Positions 1-31,589 of a stretch of 35,205 bases of DNA are shown here, piece after piece. The DNA is taken from the IMG/VR virus record IMGVR_UViG_2588253749_000005. The stretch is one strand, 5' to 3'. Each line of letters begins with the position of its first letter. Position 1 is the stretch's first letter. Below the pieces are notes generated by a model, which did not search any database, was not told the origin of the DNA, and worked only from the letters and a program-made list of their open reading frames with translations. The translations under genes were made by a program, and so were the position numbers. The DNA is from a virus. Taxonomy: Duplodnaviria > Heunggongvirae > Uroviricota > Caudoviricetes.

Positions 1-1362
1 ATGTTTAAACCGGAACTCCTTTCCCCGGCGGGAACGCTGAAAAATATGCGTTACGCTTTCGCTTATGGCGCAGATGCTGTTTATGCGGGCCAGCCGCGTT
101 ATTCCCTGCGTGTGCGCAACAACGAATTCAACCACGAAAATCTTCAGCTCGGCATCAATGAAGCCCACGCGCTGGGGAAAAAGTTTTATGTCGTGGTCAA
201 CATTGCACCGCACAACGCCAAGCTGAAAACCTTTATCCGTGACCTGAAACCGGTGGTGGAAATGGGGCCGGATGCGCTGATTATGTCCGATCCAGGGCTG
301 ATTATGCTGGTGCGTGAGCACTTCCCTGAAATGCCGATCCACCTTTCGGTGCAGGCTAACGCCGTGAACTGGGCGACGGTGAAATTCTGGCAGCAAATGG
401 GCCTGACCCGCGTGATCCTCTCTCGCGAGCTGTCGCTGGAAGAGATTGAAGAGATCCGCAATCAGGTGCCGGATATGGAGATCGAGATCTTCGTTCACGG
501 CGCGCTGTGCATGGCCTACTCCGGTCGCTGCCTGCTCTCTGGCTATATCAACAAGCGCGACCCGAACCAGGGCACCTGCACCAACGCCTGCCGCTGGGAG
601 TACAACGTCCAGGAAGGGAAAGAAGATGATGTTGGCAACATCGTACACAAGTACGAGCCGATTCCGGTGCAAAATGTTGAGCCGACGCTGGGTATCGGCG
701 CACCAACCGACAAAGTGTTTATGATCGAAGAGGCCCAGCGTCCGGGCGAGTATATGACCGCGTTTGAAGATGAGCACGGCACTTACATCATGAACTCGAA
801 AGATCTGCGCGCCATCGCCCATGTAGAACGCCTGACCAAAATGGGCGTGCATTCGCTGAAAATCGAAGGTCGTACCAAATCTTTCTACTATTGTGCACGC
901 ACCGCACAGGTTTACCGCAAAGCTATCGATGACGCCGCTGCGGGAAAACCGTTCGATACCAGCCTGCTGGAAACTCTGGAAGGTCTGGCGCATCGTGGCT
1001 ATACCGAAGGTTTCCTGCGTCGTCATACTCACGACGATTATCAGAACTACGAATACGGTTATTCAGTTTCTGACCGCCAGCAGTTTGTTGGTGAGTTTAC
1101 CGGTGAGCGCAAGGGGGACCTCGCGGCGGTAGCGGTGAAAAATAAATTCTCCGTTGGCGACAGCCTTGAGCTGATGACGCCGCAAGGCAACATTAATTTT
1201 ACCCTTGAGCACATGGAAAACGCCAAAGGCGAAGCTATGCCGATAGCACCAGGCGATGGTTATACTGTGTGGCTCCCAGTCCCGCAGGATCTTGAGCTCA
1301 ATTACGCGCTGCTGATGCGTAATTTCTCCGGGGAAACCACGCGTAATCCCCACGGTAAGTGA
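1..1362 (+). CDS. yegQ: YegQ, peptidase U32-family protein (tRNA hydroxylation TrhP-type)
   Basis: ATG at position 1, 453-aa ORF ending at 1362; protein sequence recognised as E. coli YegQ; host-like GC-rich codon usage; followed by a hairpin terminator. Confidence 0.9.
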   Translation: MFKPELLSPAGTLKNMRYAFAYGADAVYAGQPRYSLRVRNNEFNHENLQLGINEAHALGKKFYVVVNIAPHNAKLKTFIRDLKPVVEMGPDALIMSDPGLIMLVREHFPEMPIHLSVQANAVNWATVKFWQQMGLTRVILSRELSLEEIEEIRNQVPDMEIEIFVHGALCMAYSGRCLLSGYINKRDPNQGTCTNACRWEYNVQEGKEDDVGNIVHKYEPIPVQNVEPTLGIGAPTDKVFMIEEAQRPGEYMTAFEDEHGTYIMNSKDLRAIAHVERLTKMGVHSLKIEGRTKSFYYCARTAQVYRKAIDDAAAGKPFDTSLLETLEGLAHRGYTEGFLRRHTHDDYQNYEYGYSVSDRQQFVGEFTGERKGDLAAVAVKNKFSVGDSLELMTPQGNINFTLEHMENAKGEAMPIAPGDGYTVWLPVPQDLELNYALLMRNFSGETTRNPHGK

Positions 1363-1635: not shown

Positions 1636-1854
1636 TTACATCCACATAATTTGCTGCCCTGACGGCAACGGGTGCGGCCTCACGGCGTGGACTTCTCCCG
1701 GCTTCACGATGTATCGCTGTACCGACTCATAAGTGATGAACGTGGCGCTGCAATTCACGTTCTGGCACTGGTGATAACGCTCTTTTGTCGTGTCAGTGAT
1801 ATAGCGGCTTGTACGCGCATGTGCGGCATGCTGGCATAAAGGACAATGAAACAT
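1636..1854 (-). CDS. ogr: Ogr, zinc-finger late-gene transcription activator
   Basis: 72 aa from the ATG at 1854 (MFHCPLCQHAAHARTSRYITDTTKERYHQCQNVNC...), Cys4 zinc finger, recognised as P2 Ogr; the track ORF 1636..1968 has a non-matching N-terminal extension. Confidence 0.9.
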   Translation of the reverse strand: MFHCPLCQHAAHARTSRYITDTTKERYHQCQNVNCSATFITYESVQRYIVKPGEVHAVRPHPLPSGQQIMWM

Positions 1855-1936
1855 CGCGAGCACCTCTTTCGGTTTTGTTGATGTTGCCATTTTAGTTAAT
1901 TTATCCTTATAAAACAAACAGATAAAATAAAACACA

Positions 1937-3100
1937 TCACTCATCATCTTCGGTTTCGTACTCCACATCAGAAAGCCTTACCTCAAGCTCTAAGGACGTC
2001 GTGAAGCCGCTATTATTCAGAAAATGTGTCACCTTAGTGATTGTCCAGTCCTGCTCGTCTATGACACGCTTAAAGCCTGATACTTTGACCGGTGTTTCCG
2101 TGTAAATATCTGCCCGACCGGTAGCCAGGCTGATGGAGAACTCCGCTACACCCCGTTGCAGTTTATCCCACTTCGCCTGAGCGGCGCGCATGGCCTGCGC
2201 TTTCGTGGCATATACCGTGGTCAGGGCAAAAACGTTGTCAGCCTCACCGGCCATGTATTCACCTTCGCGCGCTTCCGGTACTTTTGGCGCTTTCTTCTGC
2301 GTGACTGGTTTCGCTTTCGGGTGCTCCAGTGCGCGCAGGTGTTTTTCTTTCTTTTTGCGTTTCAGTTTTACCTTCTGCTTTTGCGGCTTCGGGTCTTTGG
2401 TGTGAAGCCACTTTGCCGTTACGCCGGTATAGGCTCCACGGTCAGCAATCGCAAAATGGTGGCGGTCGCCGTCGCTGCGGGTTATGGTGACCTGCGGGAT
2501 TTTTTTACCGCTGGCCGTCACCCCCTGCCCCGCTTTGAGAAACAACAGTTTTCCCATTTTTACCGAGACCTCACCGCCGTTGCGTTCTGCAAGACGGGTC
2601 AGGAATTTCGCATCAGACTCCTGCGACTGGTCTATGTGCGGGATTTTAATTCCGGCCAGTGACGGAGCGACACTGGCTTCCAGCCTGTTACGGGAGGCTA
2701 TCGCCTCAACAATCGCACCGAGCGTGGTGTCATGCCAGGAGCCTTCCCGGCGGGAATTGAGCGTCCCGCGAAAATCTGCACTCCGGGCGCGGATGGTGAC
2801 CACATCCGGTGCGCCCCGGTGTTCAACCTCATCAACGGTAAATTTCCCTTTGCATACCAGGGCAAAACCTTTCCAGCCGATATACACCGTCAGGACAGCG
2901 CCACGAACCGGCAGCCCGACCTGCCCGTCGGCATCGTTCAGTTCAATATCAAGCTGGTCAGCCTCAAAGCCCCGGTTATCTGTCAGGGTCATGCTCATCA
3001 GACGGTCGCTGATATTGCCGGTAATATCCCTGCTGTCGAGCATCAGCATGTAATCCGGCGTCAGCGTACTGCCTGCATCAAATGTCAGCGCATCCAGCAT
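1937..3100 (-). CDS. D: Tail protein D
   Basis: 387 aa, ATG at 3100, recognised as P2 gpD; position between ogr and U. Confidence 0.9.
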   Translation of the reverse strand: MLDALTFDAGSTLTPDYMLMLDSRDITGNISDRLMSMTLTDNRGFEADQLDIELNDADGQVGLPVRGAVLTVYIGWKGFALVCKGKFTVDEVEHRGAPDVVTIRARSADFRGTLNSRREGSWHDTTLGAIVEAIASRNRLEASVAPSLAGIKIPHIDQSQESDAKFLTRLAERNGGEVSVKMGKLLFLKAGQGVTASGKKIPQVTITRSDGDRHHFAIADRGAYTGVTAKWLHTKDPKPQKQKVKLKRKKKEKHLRALEHPKAKPVTQKKAPKVPEAREGEYMAGEADNVFALTTVYATKAQAMRAAQAKWDKLQRGVAEFSISLATGRADIYTETPVKVSGFKRVIDEQDWTITKVTHFLNNSGFTTSLELEVRLSDVEYETEDDE

Positions 3101-8724: not shown

Positions 8725-9591
8725 CTATTCCTCAAGATCGCAGTTACTGCAATGACCTTCCATCCGGAATGCACCACATTCACAAGGCTCCATAGGAACA
8801 AAACCATCCATCTTGCTGTATTCACATTTATACCAGAGACAGACACCGGCCCTTTGTTCCGGTAAATAAATTACGGATGGGACACTACATTCAGGACATT
8901 CCTGAAAATCCCAAGTTTGCAGATTATTCAGGCTGAAACCACAACAGATACAGTGAGTCCGTGCCGGAAAGCTTTCACCTTGGTAAAGGATAAAATGTGA
9001 AAAACTCTCACAAACGGGACAAAGTGCAAGGGTGTATTCCTGGTTAACAGTTATATCAAGGAATTGTTGCTCAAGAGCGATGATGTCTTGACGTAAATCA
9101 GAGTTCCATGAATTTTCGGTCTCATCTGACTGAATTATGACGAATGCGGGACGAAAAATTTGTTGGTACAGTTCACTCAGTTGCATTGACAGTTCTTGCG
9201 GACGAACCTCAAGGGCAAAATGCTGAAGGTTATTACGCAACTGACCCACCGTTTTCATCATTTGTAATGCAGATTCAGAAAATTCGGCTGGGTAATATGT
9301 CTTTAACAGCTTACAAAGCTGGCTGACGTTGACAGATTTACACTGGTGTAATTCTGACTCGGTTGGATGCGCCGGATCCACACATTTTTCTTGAAGCGAT
9401 GCTGGATTAAAAATCGCTCCAGACCCATTGCGCGAAACTACGGCCTTCAATAATAGCTCAGCGGCCTGAAAGAGGTTAAGCAGGCACTGTTTGTAGTCAC
9501 GTCGATCATGCCCTTCTAGCGCTTTGTTAAAGTAGTCCAGCCCGGTTTTCACTGAATCCAACGCATTTTCTAGTAAGTTAAAACGGACCAT
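8725..9591 (-). CDS. Uncharacterised cargo protein: helical N-terminal domain with HEPN-like R-x4-H motif (RNNLQH) plus Cys-rich zinc-ribbon-like C-terminus
   Basis: Track ORF 8725..9666 starts at GTG; preferred start is the ATG at 9591 preceded by a G-rich RBS (about 288 aa); alternative ATG at 9615; C-terminal 100 aa has CPVC, CICC, CPEC, C-x4-C, CEC and CSNC motifs; AT-rich relative to phage genes. Confidence 0.6.
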   Translation of the reverse strand: MVRFNLLENALDSVKTGLDYFNKALEGHDRRDYKQCLLNLFQAAELLLKAVVSRNGSGAIFNPASLQEKCVDPAHPTESELHQCKSVNVSQLCKLLKTYYPAEFSESALQMMKTVGQLRNNLQHFALEVRPQELSMQLSELYQQIFRPAFVIIQSDETENSWNSDLRQDIIALEQQFLDITVNQEYTLALCPVCESFSHFILYQGESFPARTHCICCGFSLNNLQTWDFQECPECSVPSVIYLPEQRAGVCLWYKCEYSKMDGFVPMEPCECGAFRMEGHCSNCDLEE

Positions 9592-9756
9592 ATTAAAGCC
9601 CCCCCGAATAGGCATCGTCGTTATGCCAGCGCTTCCGCCAGTTACACAAATAGTGATTGTACCCACGAATATTGGGAACCTATTTTAGCATGTTTAACTT
9701 TAGTAGTACTGACACAACATTCATGGAGCGGACTGATTGACTTTTGGGGGCGCGTA

Positions 9757-10371: not shown

Positions 10372-11307
10372 TTAATAATATATCCTGGCTTGCTCGCTCG
10401 TTTCGGTTAAGTTTATTTCATGGTAGTGATTATTTATAAAGTCACAAAAAGTACTAATTTTATCTTTGAGATTACTCATGCTATGCGTGATTTCGTCGTA
10501 TAAATCGCTTTCCTCCTGATTTCGACAGTGGTCACCGGGATTTATAAAACTATAAGTATCATTTGGTGCTGAATAATTATATGGAGCTTTTCTAAACAAG
10601 ATAATTAGATCACGCCAAGCCGTTGCAAAATCAATTGTAACATTCTTTAAAGCTGTATCATTCAGTTGAAAAACAGGTGAGTTTAAAATGTTCAAAATAT
10701 TATCGTATTCTTCAATAATTAATGAATGAATGTATTTTGCGCCCCACTGCAAATGGTCTATTGTTGAATAAAAATCAATATAATTCAACAATCTCGACAA
10801 ATTTGAGATATCTCTCTTGCGCAAAAATTCTTCCCTCGTCGGTTGGTGTCGTTCGAACATTTGCGGGTAGTACATTTTGAGTACAGCTGGGTCTTTGCTT
10901 AAATCAAAGCTAATATCCTCCCAGAAAACCACATCGACAGGAAACAGGCCTTTTAATTGTCTGGCATCATTGAGTGTTCTTACATAGCGCTGAATGCTAA
11001 CATCCCTGGGCGCTGTCGTAGCGATGTAAAGAACCGTAATTTTTGGGCGAAATTTTTCAGCCTTGAGTAATTCATCATCGATTGTCGCCGTACTGATTCC
11101 TGATACTGTATTTTTACACTGAATTCCAACGAAACGCCCAAGAGAGTCATCACCATATACATCAACTCCATCCTGCCGCTGCCCTGACCGTCCATGTCTG
11201 TTCAGATTAGGATTGGACCATCGCAGTTGGAATGAACTTTTGCACATATCCTCAAATTCGTCCCAAGATTTAGGGGGGGGTAACAACATTGAATTATATG
11301 TAACCAC
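10372..11307 (-). CDS. Uncharacterised cargo protein with N-terminal Mrr-type restriction-endonuclease-like (PD-(D/E)xK fold) domain
   Basis: 311-aa ORF; GTG at 11307 with AAAGGA 7 nt upstream, alternative ATG at 11289; N-terminal WDEFEDMC...GRSGQRQDGVDVYG...GRFVGIQCK matches the Mrr-catalytic-domain pattern (D-x-D ... Q-x-K); C-terminal 170 aa unrecognised; strongly AT-rich. Confidence 0.6.
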   Translation of the reverse strand: MVTYNSMLLPPPKSWDEFEDMCKSSFQLRWSNPNLNRHGRSGQRQDGVDVYGDDSLGRFVGIQCKNTVSGISTATIDDELLKAEKFRPKITVLYIATTAPRDVSIQRYVRTLNDARQLKGLFPVDVVFWEDISFDLSKDPAVLKMYYPQMFERHQPTREEFLRKRDISNLSRLLNYIDFYSTIDHLQWGAKYIHSLIIEEYDNILNILNSPVFQLNDTALKNVTIDFATAWRDLIILFRKAPYNYSAPNDTYSFINPGDHCRNQEESDLYDEITHSMSNLKDKISTFCDFINNHYHEINLTETSEQARIYY

Positions 11308-16855: not shown

Positions 16856-17641
16856 ATGTTCAGTGATAATGTGATTAATGCGTGGTGGTTTATCTCTTTG
16901 TATCTATTTTTATTAATAGCATTAACATTTGTTACCTTTGGTAAAAGTAATCTTATGAGGTTTATTGCACATCATTTCAATCTTGAGTATTCAGACAGAA
17001 AGTTAAAAATGCTCGACAAAAAATGGCGCGACATTCAACTATTTAAAGTAATTAACGGAATCAATGTATCAGGCATCGAAGATGTGAGAATGATACAGCA
17101 GGGGCTGATTGATGGAAAACTAAAAACATCGTATTTTTTCCTTACTCGCATCTGGGGTGACATAACAAAACCACCACACATAATTAAAACAATAATTGTA
17201 ATTCTGGCCAGTATTTTTTACATTCTCCTCGCATGTTACATACACAACGAACAATCCGTTATAGTAAGGGATGCCATAGGCATACCATATAAAAACATGA
17301 TGTACTATGTTTATAGTGACAAAGTTCTTTTATCCTTCAAAAATAAAGCAGTTGAATTTAATAAAACTTATAGCCTTGCCGATTGCAAGAGACTGCAAAA
17401 CGTATTTATAAAAGACACACTTCCTGAGATCGCCTGCAATAAGCTCTTACAGCTAAACGAGGAGGACTCCGAATGGTTAAGCCAGGAGATTAAAGATAAT
17501 AACAGTCACAAAAAAGCATTATTAATACTATCCCTCGTCTATTTCACTTCAGGTCTGGTTATATTCCTGTCATATACAAAATTCTTTTACGCCAATAAGA
17601 AGGTTTTAGAATACAAAGCATCAAATAAAAATCACTCATAA
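16856..17641 (+). CDS. Uncharacterised three-transmembrane-segment protein in the S-V (P2 orf30) cargo slot
   Basis: 261 aa; ATG at 16856 with GAGGAG RBS 6 nt upstream; hydrophobic segments near the N-terminus, middle and C-terminus; very AT-rich; opposite strand to the surrounding tail genes. Confidence 0.7.
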   Translation: MFSDNVINAWWFISLYLFLLIALTFVTFGKSNLMRFIAHHFNLEYSDRKLKMLDKKWRDIQLFKVINGINVSGIEDVRMIQQGLIDGKLKTSYFFLTRIWGDITKPPHIIKTIIVILASIFYILLACYIHNEQSVIVRDAIGIPYKNMMYYVYSDKVLLSFKNKAVEFNKTYSLADCKRLQNVFIKDTLPEIACNKLLQLNEEDSEWLSQEIKDNNSHKKALLILSLVYFTSGLVIFLSYTKFFYANKKVLEYKASNKNHS

Positions 17642-24080: not shown

Positions 24081-25853
24081 ATGACCATCACCACAGACAC
24101 CACTCTTTTACACGACCCGCGTCGTCAGGCGGCGCTGCTGTACTGGCAGGGATTTTCCGTGCCGCAGATTGCCGCCATGTTGCAGATGAAACGCCCGACG
24201 GTGCAGAGCTGGAAACAGCGCGACGGCTGGGACAGCGTTGCCCCCATCAGCCGTGTCGAAATGAGTCTGGAAGCGCGGCTGACCCAGCTCATCATCAAAC
24301 CGCAGAAAACCGGCGGTGATTTCAAGGAAATTGACCTGCTGGGACGCCAGATTGAACGACTGGCACGGGTAAACCGCTACAGCCAGACCGGCAACGAGGC
24401 AGACCTTAATCCGAACGTCGCTAACCGCAACAAAGGCGGGCGGCGCAAACCGAAAAAGAATTTTTTCAGTGACGAGGCCATCGAAAAGCTGGAGCAGATT
24501 TTCTTTGAGCAGTCTTTCGATTATCAGTTGCACTGGTATCGCGCCGGGCTTGAGCACCGCATCCGCGATATCCTGAAATCCCGCCAGATTGGCGCGACGT
24601 TTTATTTTTCCCGCGAGGCGCTGCTGCGCGCCCTGAAAACCGGTCATAACCAGATTTTTCTGTCGGCCAGTAAAACGCAGGCGTATGTGTTCCGTGAATA
24701 CATCATCGCCTTTGCCCGTCTGGTTGATGTTGACCTGACCGGTGACCCGATTGTCCTGGGCAATAACGGCGCAAAACTGATTTTTCTCGGCACCAACTCC
24801 AACACCGCGCAGAGCCATAACGGCGACCTGTACGTCGACGAGATTTTCTGGATCCCGAATTTTCAGGTGCTGCGTAAGGTGGCATCAGGTATGGCCTCAC
24901 AGAGTCACCTGCGATCGACCTATTTCTCCACCCCGTCCACGCTGGCGCACGACGCCTACCCGTTCTGGTCGGGTGAACTGTTCAACTGGGGACGCGCCAG
25001 CGCCGCCGAACGCGTGGAAATCGACGTCAGTCATAACGCCCTTGCCGGTGGGCTTCTCTGTGCGGACGGCCAGTGGCGGCAGATTGTCACCATTGAGGAC
25101 GCCCTGAAAGGCGGCTGCACGCTGTTCGACATTGAGCAGCTCAAACGCGAAAACAGCGCCGACGATTTTAAAAACCTGTTCATGTGTGAATTTGTTGACG
25201 ACAAGGCGTCGGTGTTCCCGTTCGAGGAGCTGCAACGCTGTATGGTCGACACGCTGGAAGAATGGGAAGACTATGCGCCGTTTGCCGCCAATCCGTTCGG
25301 CTCCCGCCCGGTATGGATTGGTTACGACCCGTCACACCGTGGCGACAGCGCCGGATGCGTGGTGCTGGCACCGCCGGTGGTGGCCGGTGGCAAATTCAGA
25401 ATACTTGAGCGTCACCAGTGGAAAGGCATGGACTTTGCCACCCAGGCTGAATCCATCCGCAAACTCACCGAAAAATACAACGTCGAATACATCGGTATTG
25501 ATGCCACCGGCCTCGGTGTCGGCGTGTTCCAGCTCGTGCGCTCGTTCTATCCCGCCGCGCGCGACATCCGCTACACGCCGGAAATGAAAACCGCAATGGT
25601 GCTCAAGGCAAAAGACGTCATCCGCCGTGGCTGTCTGGAATATGACGTCAGCGCCACCGACATCACCAGCTCGTTTATGGCTATCCGCAAGACCATGACC
25701 AGCAGCGGACGCAGCGCCACCTATGAGGCCAGCCGCAGCGAGGAAGCCAGCCACGCCGACCTCGCCTGGGCGACCATGCACGCCCTGTTAAATGAGCCAC
25801 TCACCGCCGGTATCAGCACCCCGCTGACATCCACCATTCTGGAGTTTTACTGA
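24081..25853 (+). CDS. P: Terminase large (ATPase) subunit P
   Basis: 590 aa from the ATG at 24081 with GAGG RBS (MTITTDTTLLHDPRRQAALLYWQG...); P2 gpP. Confidence 0.92.
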   Translation: MTITTDTTLLHDPRRQAALLYWQGFSVPQIAAMLQMKRPTVQSWKQRDGWDSVAPISRVEMSLEARLTQLIIKPQKTGGDFKEIDLLGRQIERLARVNRYSQTGNEADLNPNVANRNKGGRRKPKKNFFSDEAIEKLEQIFFEQSFDYQLHWYRAGLEHRIRDILKSRQIGATFYFSREALLRALKTGHNQIFLSASKTQAYVFREYIIAFARLVDVDLTGDPIVLGNNGAKLIFLGTNSNTAQSHNGDLYVDEIFWIPNFQVLRKVASGMASQSHLRSTYFSTPSTLAHDAYPFWSGELFNWGRASAAERVEIDVSHNALAGGLLCADGQWRQIVTIEDALKGGCTLFDIEQLKRENSADDFKNLFMCEFVDDKASVFPFEELQRCMVDTLEEWEDYAPFAANPFGSRPVWIGYDPSHRGDSAGCVVLAPPVVAGGKFRILERHQWKGMDFATQAESIRKLTEKYNVEYIGIDATGLGVGVFQLVRSFYPAARDIRYTPEMKTAMVLKAKDVIRRGCLEYDVSATDITSSFMAIRKTMTSSGRSATYEASRSEEASHADLAWATMHALLNEPLTAGISTPLTSTILEFY

Positions 25854-26887
25854 TGAGCAAGAAAAAAGGGAAAACACCGCAACCTGCGGCAAAAAAAATG
25901 ACCGCCAGCGCCCCGAAAATGGAGGCATTCACCTTTGGTGAGCCGGTGCCGGTACTCGACCGCCGTGACATTCTGGATTACGTCGAGTGCATCAGTAACG
26001 GCAGATGGTATGAGCCGCCGGTCAGCTTTACCGGTCTGGCGAAAAGCCTGCGTGCTGCCGTGCATCACAGCTCGCCGATTTACGTCAAACGCAATATTCT
26101 GGCCTCGACATTTATCCCGCATCCGTGGCTTTCGCAACAGGATTTCAGCCGCTTTGTGCTGGATTTTCTGGTGTTCGGTAATGCGTTTCTGGAAAAGCGT
26201 TACAGCACCACCGGTAAGGTCATCAGACTGGAAACCTCACCGGCAAAATATACCCGCCGTGGCGTGGAAGAGGATGTTTACTGGTGGGTGCCGTCCTTCA
26301 ACGAGCCGACAGCCTTCGCGCCCGGCTCCGTGTTTCACCTGCTGGAGCCGGATATTAATCAGGAGCTGTACGGCCTGCCGGAATATCTCAGCGCCCTTAA
26401 CTCTGCCTGGCTGAATGAGTCGGCCACGTTGTTCCGCCGCAAGTATTACGAAAATGGCGCACATGCCGGATACATCATGTACGTCACCGATGCCGTGCAG
26501 GATCGCAACGATATCGAAATGCTTCGCGAAAACATGGTCAAGTCGAAAGGCCGCAACAACTTTAAAAACCTGTTTCTCTATGCCCCACAGGGGAAAGCCG
26601 ACGGCATTAAAATTATCCCCCTCAGTGAAGTGGCGACGAAGGACGATTTTTTTAATATCAAAAAAGCCAGCGCCGCTGACCTGCTGGACGCGCACCGCAT
26701 CCCCTTTCAGTTGATGGGTGGCAAGCCGGAGAACGTCGGGTCGCTGGGTGATATTGAGAAAGTGGCAAAGGTCTTTGTCCGCAATGAGCTTATCCCGTTA
26801 CAGGACAGGATCCGCGAGATAAACGGCTGGCTCGGTCAGGAGGTCATCCGCTTTAAAAACTACTCACTGGACACTGACAACGACTGA
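25853..26887 (+). CDS. Q: Portal protein Q
   Basis: 344 aa, ATG at 25853 overlapping the P stop; P2 gpQ. Confidence 0.92.
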   Translation: MSKKKGKTPQPAAKKMTASAPKMEAFTFGEPVPVLDRRDILDYVECISNGRWYEPPVSFTGLAKSLRAAVHHSSPIYVKRNILASTFIPHPWLSQQDFSRFVLDFLVFGNAFLEKRYSTTGKVIRLETSPAKYTRRGVEEDVYWWVPSFNEPTAFAPGSVFHLLEPDINQELYGLPEYLSALNSAWLNESATLFRRKYYENGAHAGYIMYVTDAVQDRNDIEMLRENMVKSKGRNNFKNLFLYAPQGKADGIKIIPLSEVATKDDFFNIKKASAADLLDAHRIPFQLMGGKPENVGSLGDIEKVAKVFVRNELIPLQDRIREINGWLGQEVIRFKNYSLDTDND

Positions 26888-26892
26888 ACATC

Positions 26893-26914
26893 GCCGCCTG
26901 CGGGCGGCTTTTTT
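26893..26914 (+). terminator. Intrinsic terminator after Q
   Basis: GCCGCC-tgcg-GGCGGC followed by TTTTTT, 6 nt after the Q stop. Confidence 0.8.
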
Positions 26915-27056
26915 ACACCCCGTCATCCCCCCCCTCACACGCTCACCACCGCACAAAACACCCCGCAGACACACAACGCCTCAACGGGCAGACTAAGTGC
27001 CGTCACGACGCGCTGAGACGCTGAAAAAATACAATCAGCACCACCGTCAGCGCGCA

Positions 27057-27075
27057 GTGCTTTCCCCGCCTCGCC
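27057..27075 (-). other. cos cohesive-end site (19 nt)
   Basis: gtgctttccccgcctcgcc is the reverse complement of the P2 cohesive end GGCGAGGCGGGGAAAGCAC as I recall it; located next to Q as expected. Confidence 0.7.
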
Positions 27076-27281
27076 CGCCCGCTTCATGGGGCGGTTTTAA
27101 TGCAGTTGCATGACCACTCAACTAGCGCGCCAGTCCTGATGTCGCCAGGCAGTTATTGTTCTCTGACTTGCGTGCGCTTCGATGCAGAGTAATGCACTTC
27201 CTGAATTGCTCGCATTCGCATCGTTATCATGATAGAAAACAGGTAGTTATTTGTGCGCAACTTAAGAAGAAATCACTAATT

Positions 27282-28670
27282 ATGAAAAAGATTTATGAAT
27301 TAACTACTGGTAGAGCGCTTAAGTATTTTCTGCAGCATGATTCATACACTACTCTGGAGCTACCCAGTTATGTCGATTTTTCTTCCTTGCTTGAAGAAAT
27401 CAACTCCGCGATAGATGAAGGTAAAATCAACTTCCAACCTGACTCCAAGTCATTGATGGGGAAGAATATAAATTACGAGGTTTTAGTCAGCAAAGATGGC
27501 TTATATAGCTGGCGACGAATAACACTAATTAATCCTCTGTACTACGTGTATTTTTGTAAACTTATTACATCCTCTTCCAACTGGAATGCTATAAGGAATA
27601 AATTTAGAGAGTTTGAGTCTAATGATCTTTTTTTATGCTCAAGTATCCCAGTGAGCAAAAAGAACACCTCAAACGTAGCTGCATCTGTTTTAAACTGGTG
27701 GGAAGATTTTGAACAAAAAAGTCTTTCATTGGCTCTTGAGTATGAGTTCATGTTCAGCACAGATATTTCAAACTTCTACCCTTCTATTTACACTCATAGC
27801 TTTGAATGGGTATTCATCTCAAAAGAAGAGGCCAAAAAGAAAGAAAATAACAATAACCCAGGACGATTGATTGACACTCATATCCAGATGATGATGAGTA
27901 ATCAGACAAACGGAATACCATTGGGTAGTACGTTGATGGATACATTTGCCGAATTAATTTTAGGCGAAATTGATTTACAGCTAAGAAAAAAAACCGAAGA
28001 GCAAAAAATAACGGATTACAAAGTAGTTCGCTACAGAGATGATTATCGAATATTTTCAAGCAGTAAAGATGATTTGGACAAAATCTCAAAGTGTTTGGTT
28101 GAGGTCTTAGGTGAGTTTGGGCTTGATTTAAACTCAAGAAAAACAGAACTACATGACGACATCATTCTTCACTCCCTTAAATCAGCAAAAAAAGAATATA
28201 TTATAGAAGGGTCGTTCAACTCCCTACAGAAAATGTTGTATGCAATATATTTATTTTCTTTAAAACATCAAAACTCCAAAATTACAGTCAGATATTTAAA
28301 TGATTTCTTGCGGAAATTATTTAGGAAGAAAAAGATCACAAATAGTGGGCATCAACTAGATGCAATGCTTGGAATTATTTCAAGCATCATGGCTAAAAAC
28401 CCAACCACCTACCCAGTGGGAATGGCTATTTTCGCAAAACTCTTGACCTTCCTTTATGACGACGATGAACTCAAATTTGGCAAGTTACAACAACTTCATT
28501 GTAAACTAGGTAAACAACCAAATACTGAAATGTTAGATATTTGGTTTCAACGAGTTCAAGGGAAGATACACACACAATGGGAAGGCGATTACAAAACAGC
28601 CCTATGTCAACGCATAAATGATGAACTCAAGGAAAAAAAACATTTACCATTGATGGCCTGTGGGATGTAG
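27282..28670 (+). CDS. Reverse transcriptase, Abi-P2-like defence-associated type, in the tin/old slot
   Basis: 462 aa from the ATG at 27282; RT motifs STDISNFYPSIY, NGIPLGSTLMD and VVRYRDDYRIF (YxDD); very AT-rich; sits between cos and A where P2 carries tin/old; the track ORF starts 42 codons upstream at a non-ATG codon. Confidence 0.8.
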   Translation: MKKIYELTTGRALKYFLQHDSYTTLELPSYVDFSSLLEEINSAIDEGKINFQPDSKSLMGKNINYEVLVSKDGLYSWRRITLINPLYYVYFCKLITSSSNWNAIRNKFREFESNDLFLCSSIPVSKKNTSNVAASVLNWWEDFEQKSLSLALEYEFMFSTDISNFYPSIYTHSFEWVFISKEEAKKKENNNNPGRLIDTHIQMMMSNQTNGIPLGSTLMDTFAELILGEIDLQLRKKTEEQKITDYKVVRYRDDYRIFSSSKDDLDKISKCLVEVLGEFGLDLNSRKTELHDDIILHSLKSAKKEYIIEGSFNSLQKMLYAIYLFSLKHQNSKITVRYLNDFLRKLFRKKKITNSGHQLDAMLGIISSIMAKNPTTYPVGMAIFAKLLTFLYDDDELKFGKLQQLHCKLGKQPNTEMLDIWFQRVQGKIHTQWEGDYKTALCQRINDELKEKKHLPLMACGM

Positions 28671-28925
28671 AGTGGATTCCGGGTTCAGCCAAAAATAAAA
28701 ACAAACAGAAAATACTATCAATTTTGAAAAAAACAAAAATTGTGGATTTAGATGCATTCGAAGAAATGGATACTGATATTACACCAGAAGAAGTGAACTT
28801 ATTCGACAAGGAACACAGCGCTTAACGAAACAATGTTATTAACTCAACATGACTTCGTTAAGCATTAAAGCGAACAGTCATATGAAATTTCGACATCCCT
28901 AACGCCTCGCAAGCTCGTTGTTCAA

Positions 28926-28970
28926 CCCCGCCAGCACTGAAAGCGAGTTTCAGCGTCGGCGGGATTTTCT
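28926..28970 (+). terminator. Candidate compound-hairpin terminator downstream of the reverse transcriptase
   Basis: CCCCGCC ... GGCGGG outer stem around an inner CTGAAA-gcgag-TTTCAG stem, followed by ATTTTCT. Confidence 0.4.
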
Positions 28971-28990
28971 ATGGTCAACGTGGTGACAGA

Positions 28991-29251
28991 TTATGGGCAC
29001 GCGTGAAGGTAGAAATATGGACGGTTGGGATTATTTATTTCTCCCATACGGCTGCAGTTATCACTGACGATCTCAGTCCCTCCGACCAACTCGTAGAGGG
29101 TCAGATTCTCTTTGACCATAATTTGTAAACAATAGCCATCAGCCGGAGACTCTTGCACGAGTACAATGGCGGAACCGGACGCATAGCTAGTAATGTATGC
29201 ATTAGTCATAATGACATGCTTCCAAAGCAAGATTGCCACGCAGTTCCGCAT
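28991..29251 (-). CDS. Hypothetical protein at the P2 orf91 position, immediately downstream of A
   Basis: 86-aa ORF with ATG at 29251 (alternative ATG at 29209); weak RBS; called mainly by position. Confidence 0.4.
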   Translation of the reverse strand: MRNCVAILLWKHVIMTNAYITSYASGSAIVLVQESPADGYCLQIMVKENLTLYELVGGTEIVSDNCSRMGEINNPNRPYFYLHACP

Positions 29252-29312
29252 GATCCATCAGTTGCTGATACCAACCATCAAGTGGAAGCAAAATCAACCA
29301 TTTCAATCATTT

Positions 29313-31589
29313 TTATATGTTTGTTGAGAATCCCGGCCACTCATCAGCAGCCAGATACGTGAATTGTTTCCCGTCATAATTTACGGTTGCCCCACGCGCC
29401 AGCGCCTCAAGCTCCCATCGCTGGGGCAAGATTCCATTCTGAGCAAGGTCAACGCGGATACGGGTGATTTGCAATCGTTCCGACCGGCTCAGTCTGGCCG
29501 ATGGTGCAATTTCATGTGGTTTTAACGTGCTTCCGTTTCTTTGCTGACGGTTTGGCGTTCTCAGCCCGTGTTTTAATGCGCCCCTGAGCGCCTTCACGAC
29601 CTCCGGCTCATTCCATTCGATAATACCGTCATCAACCAGATTAAGCACTGCTGCGGCGTGCTCAGAAGGTGTGGGAGCCGGTAACGAAGTATCACCACCG
29701 GTGAGCTTTCCACAGTTATTGACAGGACTCCGAGGCGCGGCGATGCCGCTTTTTAAATTCAAAGGCTCAACGACCGGAACTTTCGGCACAATGCGCCAGT
29801 CCGTGGTTCTGGTGATATGAATATGACGCGCGCCGAGATGCGGTGCGTAAATGCCGACCACTCTCTCGACCTCTTCCTCGTACTCGTTAACTTCATCCGA
29901 CGGGCTACGGGCGACCCTGACAGTCTGACAATCGCGCGGAACATTTGCCCCACCCTGCGCGCTGATATACAACGCAAAATCACCACTGTCTGCGGCGGCG
30001 CGTGCAGCCTCGACGCGCTCGTCAAACTCATCAGCAATGCTGACGCCACGAGGCAATTTGCGTAATTCACGGTAAGCCCCCATTGTCGGCAGACCAACCG
30101 TTTTAAATTGCGGAATGCGCCACGTTGACGCCCATGCGGTAACAGCCGCGGCTGTGTCTTTCAGCGGCCTGCCGGTGTCGTTATCGAGCTGACCATCCAG
30201 TGCATAGCCGTCGATGTTTTTTGAGATGTATTTCGCGATATATCCCGCAGCACCGCCCCGGTTAAGGTGTTTTGCCTGAAAACGGTTTCGCGCGGCTCCT
30301 CTTTCGTCGCCATCCTCTTTGAGCGCATAGCGACGCATGATTTCGATAATCTGGTTACGCTGGCGTGGATTACAAAAAAGCATCATATGCCAGTGCGGCG
30401 TTCCGTCGTGGTGTGGCTCGACGACACGCAAACCGTAGACCTGTAAATCATTATCCTTGAATGCCGTGCGCATCAGGCTCCAGATGCGGCAGAGATAACG
30501 CTGCGCATCCTTTGGATTAAATGCCTCATCGTTCCAGCCGTGATTAAGCTGAACGGTTTTACTTTCGCCTTTTCTGACCTGACGTGTCGGGTGATACTTT
30601 GACGGCGCGGTCAGCGTGATAAACATCCCCACATCACCCTCTGCGGCGGCGTAACGCTCAATACCGGCAATGGTGTTCATCAGCTCCATCCGGCGAATTT
30701 CAGGATTAGAAATACTGCCCATCACCTTACTGATAAGGTCGATACGCTCGCCGGTTTCCCTGTTTTCAAGGTCACACGATTTAAGAAATTCCAGATTTGC
30801 CTGGCGGCGCGCACGCACATCACGAATGGCGTGTTTACTGGCATAAGGAGAACGGTCTTTATTGACCTCCCCGACAGCTATCAGTAACGCTTCATGCCAG
30901 CGCATACGCTGGCCTTTAAGCTGATGAGTCCACCACTCATCGTTAAACAGACGGGCAATGGCAGAATATGCCTGCCTCGTGGTCATCTGCCCTTTACGGT
31001 ATTTTTTCCAGTAGAGAGGGGAAATATTGAAAGCACGTGCAGCGCCAGCAACATGACCATACAGGTGAGCCTGCGCCTCATCCGTAAACAGTGATTCTTT
31101 TTCGCCATGCGCATCCACCCAGGCATCGCAGAGTTCCTCATACATCATGAAAAGCTGCGATGAGATACGGGCGGCAAACTTTTTCAGCTCCTTGTCATTC
31201 ATTCCTGGCAGGCGCGCATAGTGGTCACGCTCTGCCAGAAACAGCAACGACGCGTCGGTGTTCATTTCATGGCGCTGATTCACACGCTCAATACGCGGCC
31301 ATAAACGACGCTGAAAAGTGGATGTGAGGAAATAAAACCCGTGTACCGGACTTTTATTGCGCCGGATGTAGTCATAGCGTGAAGTAAACAGCGAGCGCAA
31401 AAAGTAAGGCAGGCGGTTAATCGTGGATAAAACACCTTGCACCTGACGCATCTCGTCACGTGTAAGAGGTCTTTCTCGCCCGACGGCCTCGCGTGGCGCG
31501 TTCCATGCATAAGCACCGGTAAACGTCTCACCGGTGCCTGCGGCAAATGCTGACGGAGGGACAAAACGCCCGGAGGTTTTAACGGCCAT
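29313..31589 (-). CDS. A: Replication initiation protein A (rolling-circle nickase)
   Basis: 758 aa from the ATG at 31589 (MAVKTSGRFVPPSAFAAGTGETF...); P2 gpA; the track ORF has a 14-codon upstream extension. Confidence 0.92.
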   Translation of the reverse strand: MAVKTSGRFVPPSAFAAGTGETFTGAYAWNAPREAVGRERPLTRDEMRQVQGVLSTINRLPYFLRSLFTSRYDYIRRNKSPVHGFYFLTSTFQRRLWPRIERVNQRHEMNTDASLLFLAERDHYARLPGMNDKELKKFAARISSQLFMMYEELCDAWVDAHGEKESLFTDEAQAHLYGHVAGAARAFNISPLYWKKYRKGQMTTRQAYSAIARLFNDEWWTHQLKGQRMRWHEALLIAVGEVNKDRSPYASKHAIRDVRARRQANLEFLKSCDLENRETGERIDLISKVMGSISNPEIRRMELMNTIAGIERYAAAEGDVGMFITLTAPSKYHPTRQVRKGESKTVQLNHGWNDEAFNPKDAQRYLCRIWSLMRTAFKDNDLQVYGLRVVEPHHDGTPHWHMMLFCNPRQRNQIIEIMRRYALKEDGDERGAARNRFQAKHLNRGGAAGYIAKYISKNIDGYALDGQLDNDTGRPLKDTAAAVTAWASTWRIPQFKTVGLPTMGAYRELRKLPRGVSIADEFDERVEAARAAADSGDFALYISAQGGANVPRDCQTVRVARSPSDEVNEYEEEVERVVGIYAPHLGARHIHITRTTDWRIVPKVPVVEPLNLKSGIAAPRSPVNNCGKLTGGDTSLPAPTPSEHAAAVLNLVDDGIIEWNEPEVVKALRGALKHGLRTPNRQQRNGSTLKPHEIAPSARLSRSERLQITRIRVDLAQNGILPQRWELEALARGATVNYDGKQFTYLAADEWPGFSTNI

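What the first reader, a model, noticed from the sequence alone, without database searches (positions are those of the whole stretch)
26888..29312. tin/old slot occupied by an Abi-P2-type reverse transcriptase
Between cos and A, where P2 carries tin and old, there is an AT-rich reverse transcriptase with canonical FYPSI, GIPLGS and YRDD motifs. I see no obvious msr/msd-type inverted repeats upstream, which argues against a retron and for the protein-only Abi-type RT described at exactly this locus of P2-like coliphages. The family is known but the mechanism remains poorly understood.
Basis: partly seen in the sequence, partly recalled or inferred. Interest (0 to 1): 0.55.

Follow-up and report, generated by a model that had tools for sequence, protein, structure and literature searches.

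The report
Frameshifted Abi-P2 polymerase gene in P2 prophage
The gene is a well-known phage-exclusion polymerase (Abi-P2) in its usual place in a P2-like E. coli prophage, nearly identical to a copy published in 2006, but here a one-base deletion cuts off its conserved tail, so it is ordinary and probably disabled.

Summary
Between the P2 cos site (27057-27075) and gene A (29313-31589, minus strand) lies an AT-rich (35% GC) reverse-transcriptase-like gene. It carries the FYPSI, GIPLGS and YRDD motifs.

It is an Abi-P2:
- PADLOC AbiP2 E = 2e-152.
- PDB 7R08 (Abi-P2 of P2-EC30) E = 3e-233.
- 99.1% DNA identity to the published P2-EC58 orf544 locus.

I found no retron RNA, no a1/a2-type inverted repeats and no excess folding upstream. 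Retron, group II intron and Drt4 models all score far below their cut-offs.

The true ORF is 27282-28670 (462 aa) because an A9 tract is A8 here (28633-28640). Intact alleles encode 514 aa. The missing 61 residues are still open in the -1 frame (28640-28826). They include residues invariant across the family (W461, W465, E504).

The deletion is real and not a sequencing error. The same allele, identical over 2.2 kb, occurs in at least nine independent assemblies or read sets shown, on 13 contigs in all.

Best reading: a recently truncated, probably inactive or weakened copy of a protein-primed, template-independent DNA polymerase that excludes other phages. It is already known, and of low interest.

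The parts
26893..26914 (+). Intrinsic terminator after portal gene Q (GCCGCCTGCGGGCGGC followed by a T-run)
   Evidence: Terminator scan. The same region is annotated 'terminator' in P2 AF063097.
26927..26934 (.). C8 homopolymer in the Q-cos spacer. It is C9 in the nearest intact relative and in one sister assembly.
27057..27075 (-). cos: the 19-nt P2 cohesive-end sequence (reverse complement of GGCGAGGCGGGGAAAGCAC)
   Evidence: Exact match. Window 26888-27075 matches P2 bases 1-186, annotated cosL, at 98.9%.
27075..27098 (+). Conserved hairpin plus T-run directly next to cos, on the cos-proximal side of the cargo slot
   Evidence: Conserved in the E. coli orf570-type and Salmonella loci (alignment A2).
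27099..27281 (+). 5' non-coding region and leader of the RT gene. It holds a block CATGATAGAAAA (27228-27239) conserved in divergent loci, which may be an extended -10 element (inference only). There is no structured RNA.
   Evidence: Alignment. Fold z = +0.33. No Rfam match. The promoter scan found no strong sigma-70 site on the + strand.
27282..28670 (+). Abi-P2 ORF as it stands: 462 aa, made of 453 native residues plus 9 out-of-frame residues (HLPLMACGM) and a stop
   Evidence: Annotated as a 462-aa 'RNA-directed DNA polymerase', WP_248697044.1, in the identical genome NZ_CP127035.1.
27369..27371 (+). Codon of Tyr30, the protein-priming tyrosine (Tyr61 in 7R08 numbering, which has a 31-aa offset)
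   Evidence: Alignment to 7R08. Invariant in 25 homologues. Y61F abolishes synthesis (PMC9508834). Offset checked.
27774..27788 (+). FYPSI motif; the first catalytic Asp (D161) lies just upstream
   Evidence: D161, Y166 and Y170 are invariant.
27912..27929 (+). GIPLGS motif (within QTNGIPLGS)
   Evidence: Q208-P213 and G215 are invariant.
28032..28043 (+). YRDD catalytic motif with the Abi-P2-specific Arg
   Evidence: R250-Y255 are invariant. The conserved R in Y/FxDD is noted for Abi-P2 in PMC2602772.
28633..28640 (+). A8 tract: the site of the 1-nt deletion. It is A9 in WS3294A and P2-EC58, and G+A8 in pro147-type alleles.
28640..28826 (+). Stranded C-terminal coding segment in the -1 frame: 61 codons (TFTIDGLWDVEWIPGS...NLFDKEHSA) plus a stop
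   Evidence: Holds family-invariant W461, W465 and E504, and the near-invariant I500, L507 and F508. Ordered in the AF2 model and covered by the fold alignment to 7R08.
28820..28863 (+). Stable hairpin overlapping the stop codon of the full-length frame
   Evidence: Inverted repeat I2. dG -16.7 kcal/mol, z = -5.5.
28927..28968 (+). Terminator-like hairpin (CCCGCC...GGCGGG) followed by a T-run; probably the end of the RT transcript
   Evidence: dG -22.6 kcal/mol, z = -4.9, plus direct reading of the sequence.
28991..29251 (-). Small ORF ('ORF85' of P2-EC58; 72 aa from ATG 29209), downstream of A on the A strand. Function unknown; probably not part of the RT system.
   Evidence: phrog_13272, E = 3e-54, unknown function. 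Annotated in AM157368. No Pfam, PADLOC or NCBIfam match. Absent from the orf570-type locus L014.

Best explanation
This is the cos-proximal cargo slot (the tin/old or 'TO' region) of an otherwise complete P2-like E. coli prophage. It holds an Abi-P2 gene of the P2-EC58 orf544 type.

**What intact Abi-P2 does.** It is a single-gene phage-exclusion system. [quoted passage not shown] It forms trimers, and possibly hexamers. It attaches the first nucleotide to its own tyrosine (Tyr30 here) and then makes single-stranded DNA of random sequence with no template and no RNA partner. A relative, orf570 of P2-EC30, excludes phage T5.

**How exclusion probably works (inferred).** By analogy with the class-1 relatives DRT4 and DRT6, the DNA product is normally kept low by host exonuclease. 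It becomes toxic when a phage DNA-binding protein protects it. This is inferred, not shown for Abi-P2.

**This copy.** One A has been lost from an A9 tract (A8 at 28633-28640). Translation therefore ends at 462 aa instead of 514, and the last 61 residues are lost. That segment is conserved across the family and is structurally ordered. The deletion is a real, clonally inherited allele, and very recent, because there is no other change in 2.2 kb. The copy is most likely a newly inactivated or strongly weakened defence gene. At most, a small fraction of full-length protein could arise by slippage on the A-tract.
For: **Identity**
- PADLOC AbiP2 2.1e-152.
- 7R08 3.2e-233 over residues 1-453.
- phrog_12132 matched over 1-461 of 514.
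- 99.1% DNA identity to AM157368, P2-EC58.
- The repaired protein is 99.0% identical to Q2P9X0.
- AF2 model of the intact allele: pLDDT 88.6, TM 0.92/0.97 to 7R08.

**Place**
- cos at 27057-27075.
- Portal upstream and gpA downstream.
- The same slot is used in L014 and L015.

**No RNA partner or effector**.

**Enzymology**: PMC9508834. Tyr30 and YRDD are invariant.

**Frameshift**
-.
- Nearest relative WS3294A differs in 27077-29312 only by A9 instead of A8, and encodes 514 aa.

**The allele is real and clonal**
- The exact 462-aa product is on 13 contigs, from nine independent assemblies or read sets shown.
- All are 100% identical over 2236 nt.

**The lost tail matters**
- It contains the invariant W461, W465 and E504 and the near-invariant I500, L507 and F508, conserved down to about 35% identity.
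- It is ordered in the model.
- Among the full-length homologues listed, lengths are about 492-582 aa. Shorter entries are contig fragments or other truncations.
- Deleting the 46 C-terminal residues of AbiK abolished defence (cited in PMC9508834).

**Intact is the rule**: 9 of 11 complete-genome copies inspected encode 514 aa.

**DRT4/DRT6 model**: PMC12783706.
Against: - No experiment shows that the 462-aa protein is inactive.
- The catalytic core, the priming tyrosine and the helices reported to form the trimer interface (alpha1', 2', 4', 6') are all upstream of the break. Residual polymerase activity is therefore possible.
- The frame-0 context A_AAA_AAA is a classical -1 slippery heptamer, and a -1 slip would recreate exactly the wild-type sequence. 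Some full-length protein cannot be excluded.
- The allele has persisted in a lineage sampled many times, which is compatible with neutrality but also with retained function.
- The step from ssDNA synthesis to phage exclusion is borrowed from DRT4/DRT6 and has not been shown for Abi-P2.
Confidence: 0.8

Rival explanations
1. The gene is a fully functional Abi-P2 defence gene. This is what the first reader implied. On this view the 462-aa product is sufficient for defence, and the C-terminal 61 residues are dispensable.
For: - RT motifs, the priming Tyr30 and most of the helical domain are retained.
- The helices reported at the trimer interface lie before the break.
- RefSeq annotates the gene as a normal CDS, not a pseudogene.
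- The allele persists in many isolates.
Against: - The lost segment contains invariant residues conserved down to about 35% identity.
- It is ordered in the model and in 7R08, where residues up to 541 are visible.
- No naturally short family members were seen among the full-length homologues.
- A comparable C-terminal deletion kills AbiK.
Confidence: 0.12
2. The A-tract is a switch or a recoding site. Either the A9/A8 tract varies reversibly by slipped-strand mispairing, turning an abortive-infection gene on and off. Or the A8 allele makes both a short and a full-length protein through -1 ribosomal frameshifting or transcriptional slippage.
For: - Frame-0 reading GAA AAA AAA CAT contains the heptamer A_AAA_AAA. 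A -1 slip gives exactly ...EKKTFTIDG..., as in the intact alleles.
- Other copies are broken at other homopolymers: A8 to A7 at 27986-27993 in strain S56, and at the A7 run 28187-28193 in P0014.
Against: - There is no stimulatory structure downstream of the tract (z = +0.43).
- The tract is not conserved in the family. Most close alleles read GGG+A8 in frame, and orf570-type proteins read TKEK.
- All A8 copies are one clone, with no sign of repeated switching.
- The other truncations fit simple mutational decay or assembly errors equally well.
Confidence: 0.06
3. The frameshift is a sequencing or assembly artefact, and the real gene is intact.
For: Homopolymer length errors are common in long-read assemblies. 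The difference from the nearest intact allele is a single A.
Against: The identical 462-aa product and identical DNA occur in nine independent data sets shown, on 13 contigs in all. These include two older NCBI draft assemblies and several separately assembled read sets.
Confidence: 0.01
4. The RT belongs to a retron, or to another RNA-templated system (DRT2/DRT9-like), whose ncRNA was overlooked.
For: Sister prophages of the pro147 type do carry a retron (Ec48-family RT plus membrane effector) on the other side of cos.
Against: - In this window the Q-cos spacer is the plain P2 sequence.
- No Rfam match at E <= 10 in 26500-29700.
- No a1/a2-type repeats.
- The 5' region does not fold better than shuffles.
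- Retron RT model: 35 bits against a cut-off of 235.
- Retron RT structures: TM about 0.3, against 0.92 for Abi-P2.
- The flanking non-coding DNA is not conserved in divergent Abi-P2 loci beyond the cos-adjacent part.
Confidence: 0.01

Closest known systems
orf544 of prophage P2-EC58 (GenBank AM157368; UniProt Q2P9X0; Odegrip et al. 2006, J Bacteriol 188:1643, known here only through citing papers)
   Same: Same gene in the same slot. DNA is 99.1% identical over 2224 nt, including the small ORF85. The repaired protein is 99.0% identical.
   Different: P2-EC58 has A9 and an open frame through to ...KEHSA. The window has A8 and stops at 462 aa. The 544-aa annotation starts 30 codons upstream (ATG 27192). 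That extension is not conserved, and its counterpart is invisible in the crystal structure.
Abi-P2 of P2-EC30 (orf570; PDB 7R08; Figiel et al. 2022, PMC9508834)
   Same: - Same family, fold and slot.
- The orf570-type homologue P0065 is about 75% identical in protein sequence.
- YRDD and the priming tyrosine (Tyr61 = Tyr30 here) are conserved.
- TM 0.92/0.97 for the repaired protein.
   Different: It is a different allele group. That protein is intact and has been shown to polymerise DNA and, as orf570, to exclude T5. Nothing has been tested for the window's allele, which lacks the part equivalent to about residues 485-541 of 7R08.
DRT6 and DRT4/UG15 (class-1 UG/Abi reverse transcriptases; PMC12783706)
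   Same: RT-like domain plus helical domain. Single-gene, protein-primed, template-independent ssDNA synthesis. Anti-T5 abortive infection. They are the next-best profile and fold matches.
   Different: Only about 17-18% identity in the fold alignment. NCBIfam Drt4 scores 123 bits against a cut-off of 450. TM is 0.56-0.64. Their trigger (T5 ORF55) and SbcB dependence are not known to apply to Abi-P2.
AbiK and AbiA of Lactococcus
   Same: Abi polymerases with protein priming, no template and a helical domain in place of a thumb.
   Different: About 14-18% identity. AbiK is a hexamer with 16 helices in its helical domain. AbiA is a dimer with a HEPN domain. Both are plasmid-borne in Gram-positive hosts.
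old and tin of phage P2 (the reference occupants of this slot)
   Same: Same position between cos and A, the same role as a prophage-encoded exclusion cargo, and the same low GC (PMC9122126).
   Different: Unrelated proteins: OLD is a nuclease, and Tin is a T-even exclusion protein. Neither is present in this window.

Membership tests
Abi-P2 (UG/Abi class 1 reverse-transcriptase-like polymerases) | Best and specific match to Abi-P2 sequence models and to the solved Abi-P2 protein | tested here: met
   PADLOC AbiP2 2.1e-152, against 5.1e-47 for the next model. 7R08 3.2e-233. phrog_12132 score 1066 bits.
Abi-P2 (UG/Abi class 1 reverse-transcriptase-like polymerases) | Catalytic Y-x-D-D motif with the group-specific Arg (YRDD) | tested here: met
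   YRDD at aa 251-254. Invariant in 25 homologues. The feature is stated in PMC2602772.
Abi-P2 (UG/Abi class 1 reverse-transcriptase-like polymerases) | Priming tyrosine on the alpha2-alpha3 loop of the fingers (Tyr61 of 7R08) | tested here: met
   Tyr30 aligns with Tyr61 of 7R08 (31-aa offset) and is invariant (PMC9508834).
Abi-P2 (UG/Abi class 1 reverse-transcriptase-like polymerases) | Complete C-terminal helical domain (11 helices; no thumb) | tested here: not met
   - The encoded protein stops at residue 453 of the native sequence (462 aa in all).
- Residues 454-514 are lost from frame: a Trp-rich linker, helix 473-484 and three short helices.
- The gene is therefore a damaged member of the family, not a non-member.
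Abi-P2 (UG/Abi class 1 reverse-transcriptase-like polymerases) | Stand-alone gene: no ncRNA and no dedicated effector gene | tested here: met
   No Rfam match. No retron-like repeats. No excess folding. The only neighbour is the small ORF85, which is absent from the orf570-type locus.
Abi-P2 (UG/Abi class 1 reverse-transcriptase-like polymerases) | Located in the variable cos-to-A (tin/old) region of P2-like prophages | tested here: met
   cos at 27057-27075, A at 29313-31589. Same arrangement in L014 and L015.
Abi-P2 (UG/Abi class 1 reverse-transcriptase-like polymerases) | Template-independent, protein-primed DNA synthesis, with trimer formation | not testable with these tools
   Shown for the P2-EC30 protein only (PMC9508834).
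Abi-P2 (UG/Abi class 1 reverse-transcriptase-like polymerases) | Exclusion of superinfecting phage (T5) | not testable with these tools
   Reported for orf570 of P2-EC30 (cited in PMC9508834, PMC2602772 and PMC11077055). The primary paper is not held.
Retron | msr/msd ncRNA with flanking a1/a2 inverted repeats next to the RT | tested here: not met
   Rfam scan at E <= 10 found only two chance-level hits to eukaryotic families. No suitable inverted repeats. 5' region z = +0.33.
Retron | Retron-type RT sequence and fold | tested here: not met
   NCBIfam retron_St85_RT scores 35.3 bits against a cut-off of 235. Retron RT structures give TM about 0.3.
Group II intron RT/maturase | Group II RT/maturase model match and an intron RNA | tested here: not met
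   TIGR04416 scores 42 bits against a cut-off of 300. No group II intron RNA in Rfam. TM 0.35-0.37.
DRT4 / DRT6 | Equivalog-level match to Drt4 or Drt6 models | tested here: not met
   NF041749 Drt4 scores 122.7 bits against a cut-off of 450. PADLOC Drt6 at 5e-47 is far weaker than AbiP2.

The most novel reading that the evidence does not exclude
The A9/A8 tract near the 3' end of this Abi-P2 allele might act as a contingency or recoding site. Slipped-strand changes, or -1 slippage on A_AAA_AAA, would set the ratio of tail-less to full-length subunits. That ratio would tune a potentially self-toxic DNA polymerase trimer in lysogens. Recurrent homopolymer breaks in other copies (strain S56 at 27986-27993; P0014 at 28187-28193) would then be part of the same behaviour rather than simple decay.
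Probability: 0.06. Interest if true: 0.4.

Novelty: already known. Interest (0 to 1): 0.14.

Why it matters
It matters little for discovery.

- **Already described.** The gene family, its locus, its structure and its enzymology are published. This allele is 99% identical to one deposited in 2006.
- **Annotation lesson.** RefSeq lists the 462-aa product as an ordinary 'RNA-directed DNA polymerase'. Defence-system finders would count it as an AbiP2 system. Yet the copy has lost a conserved, ordered C-terminal segment. Censuses of defence systems in prophages can therefore overcount functional systems, especially for AT-rich cargo genes full of homopolymers.
- **A possible experiment.** The natural A8/A9 allele pair differs by one base in this gene. 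It is a ready-made test of what the Abi-P2 C-terminal tail does.

Tried and rejected
**Retron or other ncRNA.** I ran an Rfam scan at E <= 10 over 26500-29700, a repeat search and a fold of 27077-27300 against shuffles. Nothing was found.

**Programmed -1 frameshift.** I folded the 60 nt downstream of the A-tract. It has no structure beyond shuffles (z = +0.43). The tract is not conserved in the family. I kept this reading only as a low-probability case.

**Sequencing artefact.** Rejected by an exact-protein look-up and by comparing the contigs.

**Counting A8 against A9 in all complete E. coli genomes.** A 61-nt BLAST query returned no match, presumably because of the low-complexity filter. 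I sampled annotated copies instead.

**Primary paper.** Odegrip et al. 2006 (PMC1367236) is not held. Its content is cited only through later papers. One paper reading failed on a term that was too short.

**Long N-terminal extension (ORF544, start 27192).** Rejected as the real start, for three reasons:
- The profiles start at Met 27282.
- The upstream stretch is not conserved in frame in divergent loci.
- The equivalent 31 residues are invisible in 7R08.

**ORF85 (28991-29251) as a partner gene.** It has no domain or defence match and is absent from the orf570-type locus. I do not count it as part of the system.

Full report
**1. What is at the coordinates**

The interval 26888-29312 is exactly the gap between the stop of the portal gene Q (25853-26887, +) and the stop of the replication gene A (29313-31589, -) of a P2-like prophage.

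The window as a whole is a complete P2-type genome. It runs from a host peptidase-U32 gene and ogr on the left to cox, C and int on the right.

The interval is 100% identical to E. coli TW10573, NZ_CP127035.1.

From left to right the slot contains:
- the Q terminator (26893-26914);
- a C8 run (26927-26934);
- the 19-nt P2 cohesive-end sequence at 27057-27075 (the cos sequence itself is from my memory, but the region matches bases 1-186 of phage P2, annotated cosL);
- a conserved hairpin (27075-27098);
- about 180 nt of leader;
- the RT-like gene;
- two hairpins (28820-28863 and 28927-28968; z = -5.5 and -4.9);
- a small minus-strand ORF (28991-29251).

The RT region has 35% GC, against 53% in Q and A.

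**2. The observation**

The ORF starts at ATG 27282. The family profiles begin there. The upstream in-frame stretch that gave 'ORF544' in the 2006 record is not conserved in divergent loci. Its counterpart is invisible in the crystal structure.

**3. What it is**

Sequence evidence:
- PADLOC gives AbiP2 at E = 2.1e-152. The next models are Drt6 at 5e-47 and UG14 at 2e-45.
- The PDB sequence search gives 7R08, 'Abi-P2', at 3.2e-233.
- Pfam sees only the generic RVT_1 domain.
- NCBIfam has no Abi-P2 model. Its Drt4, Drt3b, group II, AbiA and retron models all score far below their cut-offs.

DNA evidence:
- The DNA is 99.1% identical to AM157368, 'Bacteriophage P2-EC58 proviral ORF444 DNA', whose CDS is 'putative reverse transcriptase ORF544'.
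- It is similarly close to phage pro147.

Structural evidence:
- An AlphaFold model of the intact 514-aa allele reached pLDDT 88.6 and pTM 0.90.
- It superposes on 7R08 with TM 0.92/0.97 and rmsd 1.5 A.
- DRT6, DRT4/UG15, AbiK and AbiA follow at TM 0.45-0.64.
- Retron, DGR and group II RTs reach only about 0.3-0.37.

Context of relatives:
- Homologues at 75-81% identity sit in the same portal-RT-gpA slot. These are the E. coli orf570 type and a Salmonella copy.
- A 37%-identical E. coli homologue sits in a different mobile island.

**4. No RNA partner**

- Rfam at E <= 10 over 26500-29700 found only two chance-level hits to eukaryotic families.
- There are no a1/a2-like inverted repeats.
- The 5' region 27077-27300 folds no better than shuffled sequence (z = +0.33).
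- Beyond the cos-adjacent block, the flanks are poorly conserved between divergent Abi-P2 loci.
- The 3' spacer varies from about 50 to about 480 nt.

Neither is met.

**5.

The match to 7R08 stops at residue 453. The PHROG and PADLOC profiles are left with about 50 unmatched C-terminal positions.

Translating the other frames shows that the natural C-terminus is open in the -1 frame at 28640-28826. It reads TFTIDGLWDVEWIPGSAKNKNKQKILSILKKTKIVDLDAFEEMDTDITPEEVNLFDKEHSA.

The alignment with the nearest relative is decisive. Strain WS3294A differs in 27077-29312 by a single base: A9 there, A8 here (28633-28640). It encodes 514 aa. P2-EC58 also has A9, and pro147-type alleles read GGG+A8 in frame.

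The window's product is therefore 453 native residues plus HLPLMACGM.

**6. Is the deletion real?**

Yes.
- The exact 462-aa sequence is in the protein collection under several accessions.
- It is encoded on 13 contigs. The nine places shown come from nine different samples: two NCBI draft assemblies, GCA_001637785.1 and GCA_000167815.1, and seven separately assembled read sets. From memory, GCA_000167815.1 is the Sanger-era ETEC strain B7A.
- All are 100% identical to the window over 2236 nt.

This is one clonal allele, and a recent one.

Intact copies are the rule. Nine of eleven complete-genome copies that I inspected encode 514 aa, and the 514-aa forms dominate the cluster.

The other broken complete-genome copy, strain S56, has lost an A from a different A8 run (27986-27993). 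Cluster member P0014 breaks at the A7 run 28187-28193. This AT-rich gene has five A or T runs of 7 or more, so such breaks are expected.

**7. Does the lost tail matter?**

I aligned 25 homologues, reaching down to 34% identity. In that alignment the tail carries invariant W461, W465 and E504, and near-invariant I500, L507 and F508. These form the motifs (I/L)W(N/D)xxW(I/L) and IxxxEVxLF.

In the model the tail is ordered, with pLDDT of about 83-93 for residues 461-500, and contains helix 473-484 plus three short helices. In 7R08, residues up to 541 are visible.

Among the full-length homologues listed, none is shorter than about 492 aa. Shorter entries are contig fragments or other truncations.

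For AbiK, deleting the 46 C-terminal residues abolished defence (cited in PMC9508834).

Against this, the catalytic core, Tyr30 and the helices reported at the trimer interface (alpha1', 2', 4', 6') precede the break. Some activity could therefore survive. I put 'inactive or strongly weakened' at roughly two in three.

**8. How the intact system works**

*Shown for relatives:*
- Abi-P2 of P2-EC30 forms trimers, and a dimer of trimers in the crystal.
- It lacks a thumb.
- It makes DNA of about 40 nt and of more than 100 nt without template or primer.
- It needs Tyr61 for this, which is Tyr30 here (PMC9508834).
- orf570 confers resistance to T5 (as cited).

*Inferred:*
- The gene is expressed from its own promoter in the lysogen. 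The conserved CATGATAGAAAA block at 27228-27239 may be an extended -10 element, but the scan found no strong site.
- Exclusion probably follows the DRT4/DRT6 scheme. Random ssDNA is made constitutively and degraded by host exonuclease. It accumulates to toxic levels when a phage DNA-binding protein protects it (PMC12783706).

That last step has not been shown for Abi-P2.

**9. Recoding or phase variation**

In frame 0 the tract reads GAA AAA AAA CAT. A_AAA_AAA is a slippery heptamer (general knowledge), and a -1 slip would restore the exact wild-type sequence.

Three things count against this reading:
- There is no downstream stimulatory structure.
- The tract is not a conserved feature of the family.
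- All A8 copies are one clone.

I keep it as the most novel reading that is not excluded, at about 6%.

**10. Comparison and verdict**

This is a member of a known family, in its known slot, and almost identical to a published allele. Relative to that allele it is damaged.

P2's own occupants of this slot, old and tin, are absent. The slot is a documented hotspot of anti-phage cargo (PMC9122126).

Novelty: already known. Interest: low. The only useful twist is that a gene which annotation pipelines would count as a working AbiP2 system has lost a conserved C-terminal segment.

Noticed in passing
L018:5205-7099 (phage pro147, NC_028896.1 22204-24098); corresponds to the Q-cos spacer, window 26888-27048: In pro147, a retron sits between the portal gene and cos, directly across cos from a near-identical Abi-P2 gene. 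It consists of an Ec48-family RT plus a membrane effector. At least 18 of the 40 listed complete E. coli genomes (BLAST matches starting at query base 162) lack the window's Q-cos spacer in the same way. I checked the content of that interval only in pro147. This window has the plain P2 spacer instead.
   Followed up: partly
window 8725-9666 (-) and 10372-11307 (-): Two AT-rich cargo ORFs (GC 0.36-0.44) lie in the Z/fun slot between tail genes FI and G. The first matches the PADLOC candidate PDC-S64 (3e-21), with weak DUF3644 and Csm6/HEPN-like hits. The second has only a PHROG of unknown function. This may be a second defence cargo of the same prophage.
   Followed up: partly
window 16856-17641 (+): An AT-rich (GC 0.36) 261-aa ORF lies between V and S, which is the orf30-type slot of P2. 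It matches phrog_2407 (unknown function) and has no Pfam or PADLOC match.
   Followed up: partly
L019:396-1939 (E. coli S56, NZ_CP010242.1); equivalent to window 27986-27993: This is an independent break of the same gene in another strain. The A8 run at 27986-27993 is A7 there, which splits the RT into two annotated CDSs. Cluster member P0014 (307 aa) breaks at the A7 run 28187-28193. Homopolymer frameshifts recur in this gene, or in its assemblies.
   Followed up: partly
window 26927-26934: The C8 run between the Q terminator and cos is C9 in WS3294A and in one sister assembly of the A8 clone (L007). It is a second length-variable homopolymer in the slot, this one non-coding.
   Followed up: no
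window 28820-28863: A stable hairpin (dG -16.7 kcal/mol, z = -5.5) overlaps the stop codon of the full-length RT frame, upstream of the terminator-like hairpin at 28927-28968. Its role is unknown. The 3' spacer is not conserved in length in divergent Abi-P2 loci.
   Followed up: partly
window 28991-29251 (-): The small ORF ('ORF85' of P2-EC58; 72 aa from ATG 29209) lies just downstream of gene A. It matches phrog_13272 (unknown function). It travels with the EC58-type Abi-P2 allele but is absent from the orf570-type locus.
   Followed up: partly
L020:193-1194 (E. coli HKUOPY1, NZ_CP019961.1): In this strain the BLAST match to the slot is split into two pieces and spans 3695 bp instead of 2425 bp. 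The extra roughly 1.27 kb lies upstream of an intact Abi-P2 gene and carries a 333-aa hypothetical protein on the minus strand. This is another variant of the hotspot.
   Followed up: no
window 1-1362 (+) and 1636-1968 (-): The window starts with a host peptidase-U32 gene (Pfam 5e-89), followed by the prophage ogr gene. The left prophage boundary therefore lies between about 1363 and 1635.
   Followed up: no
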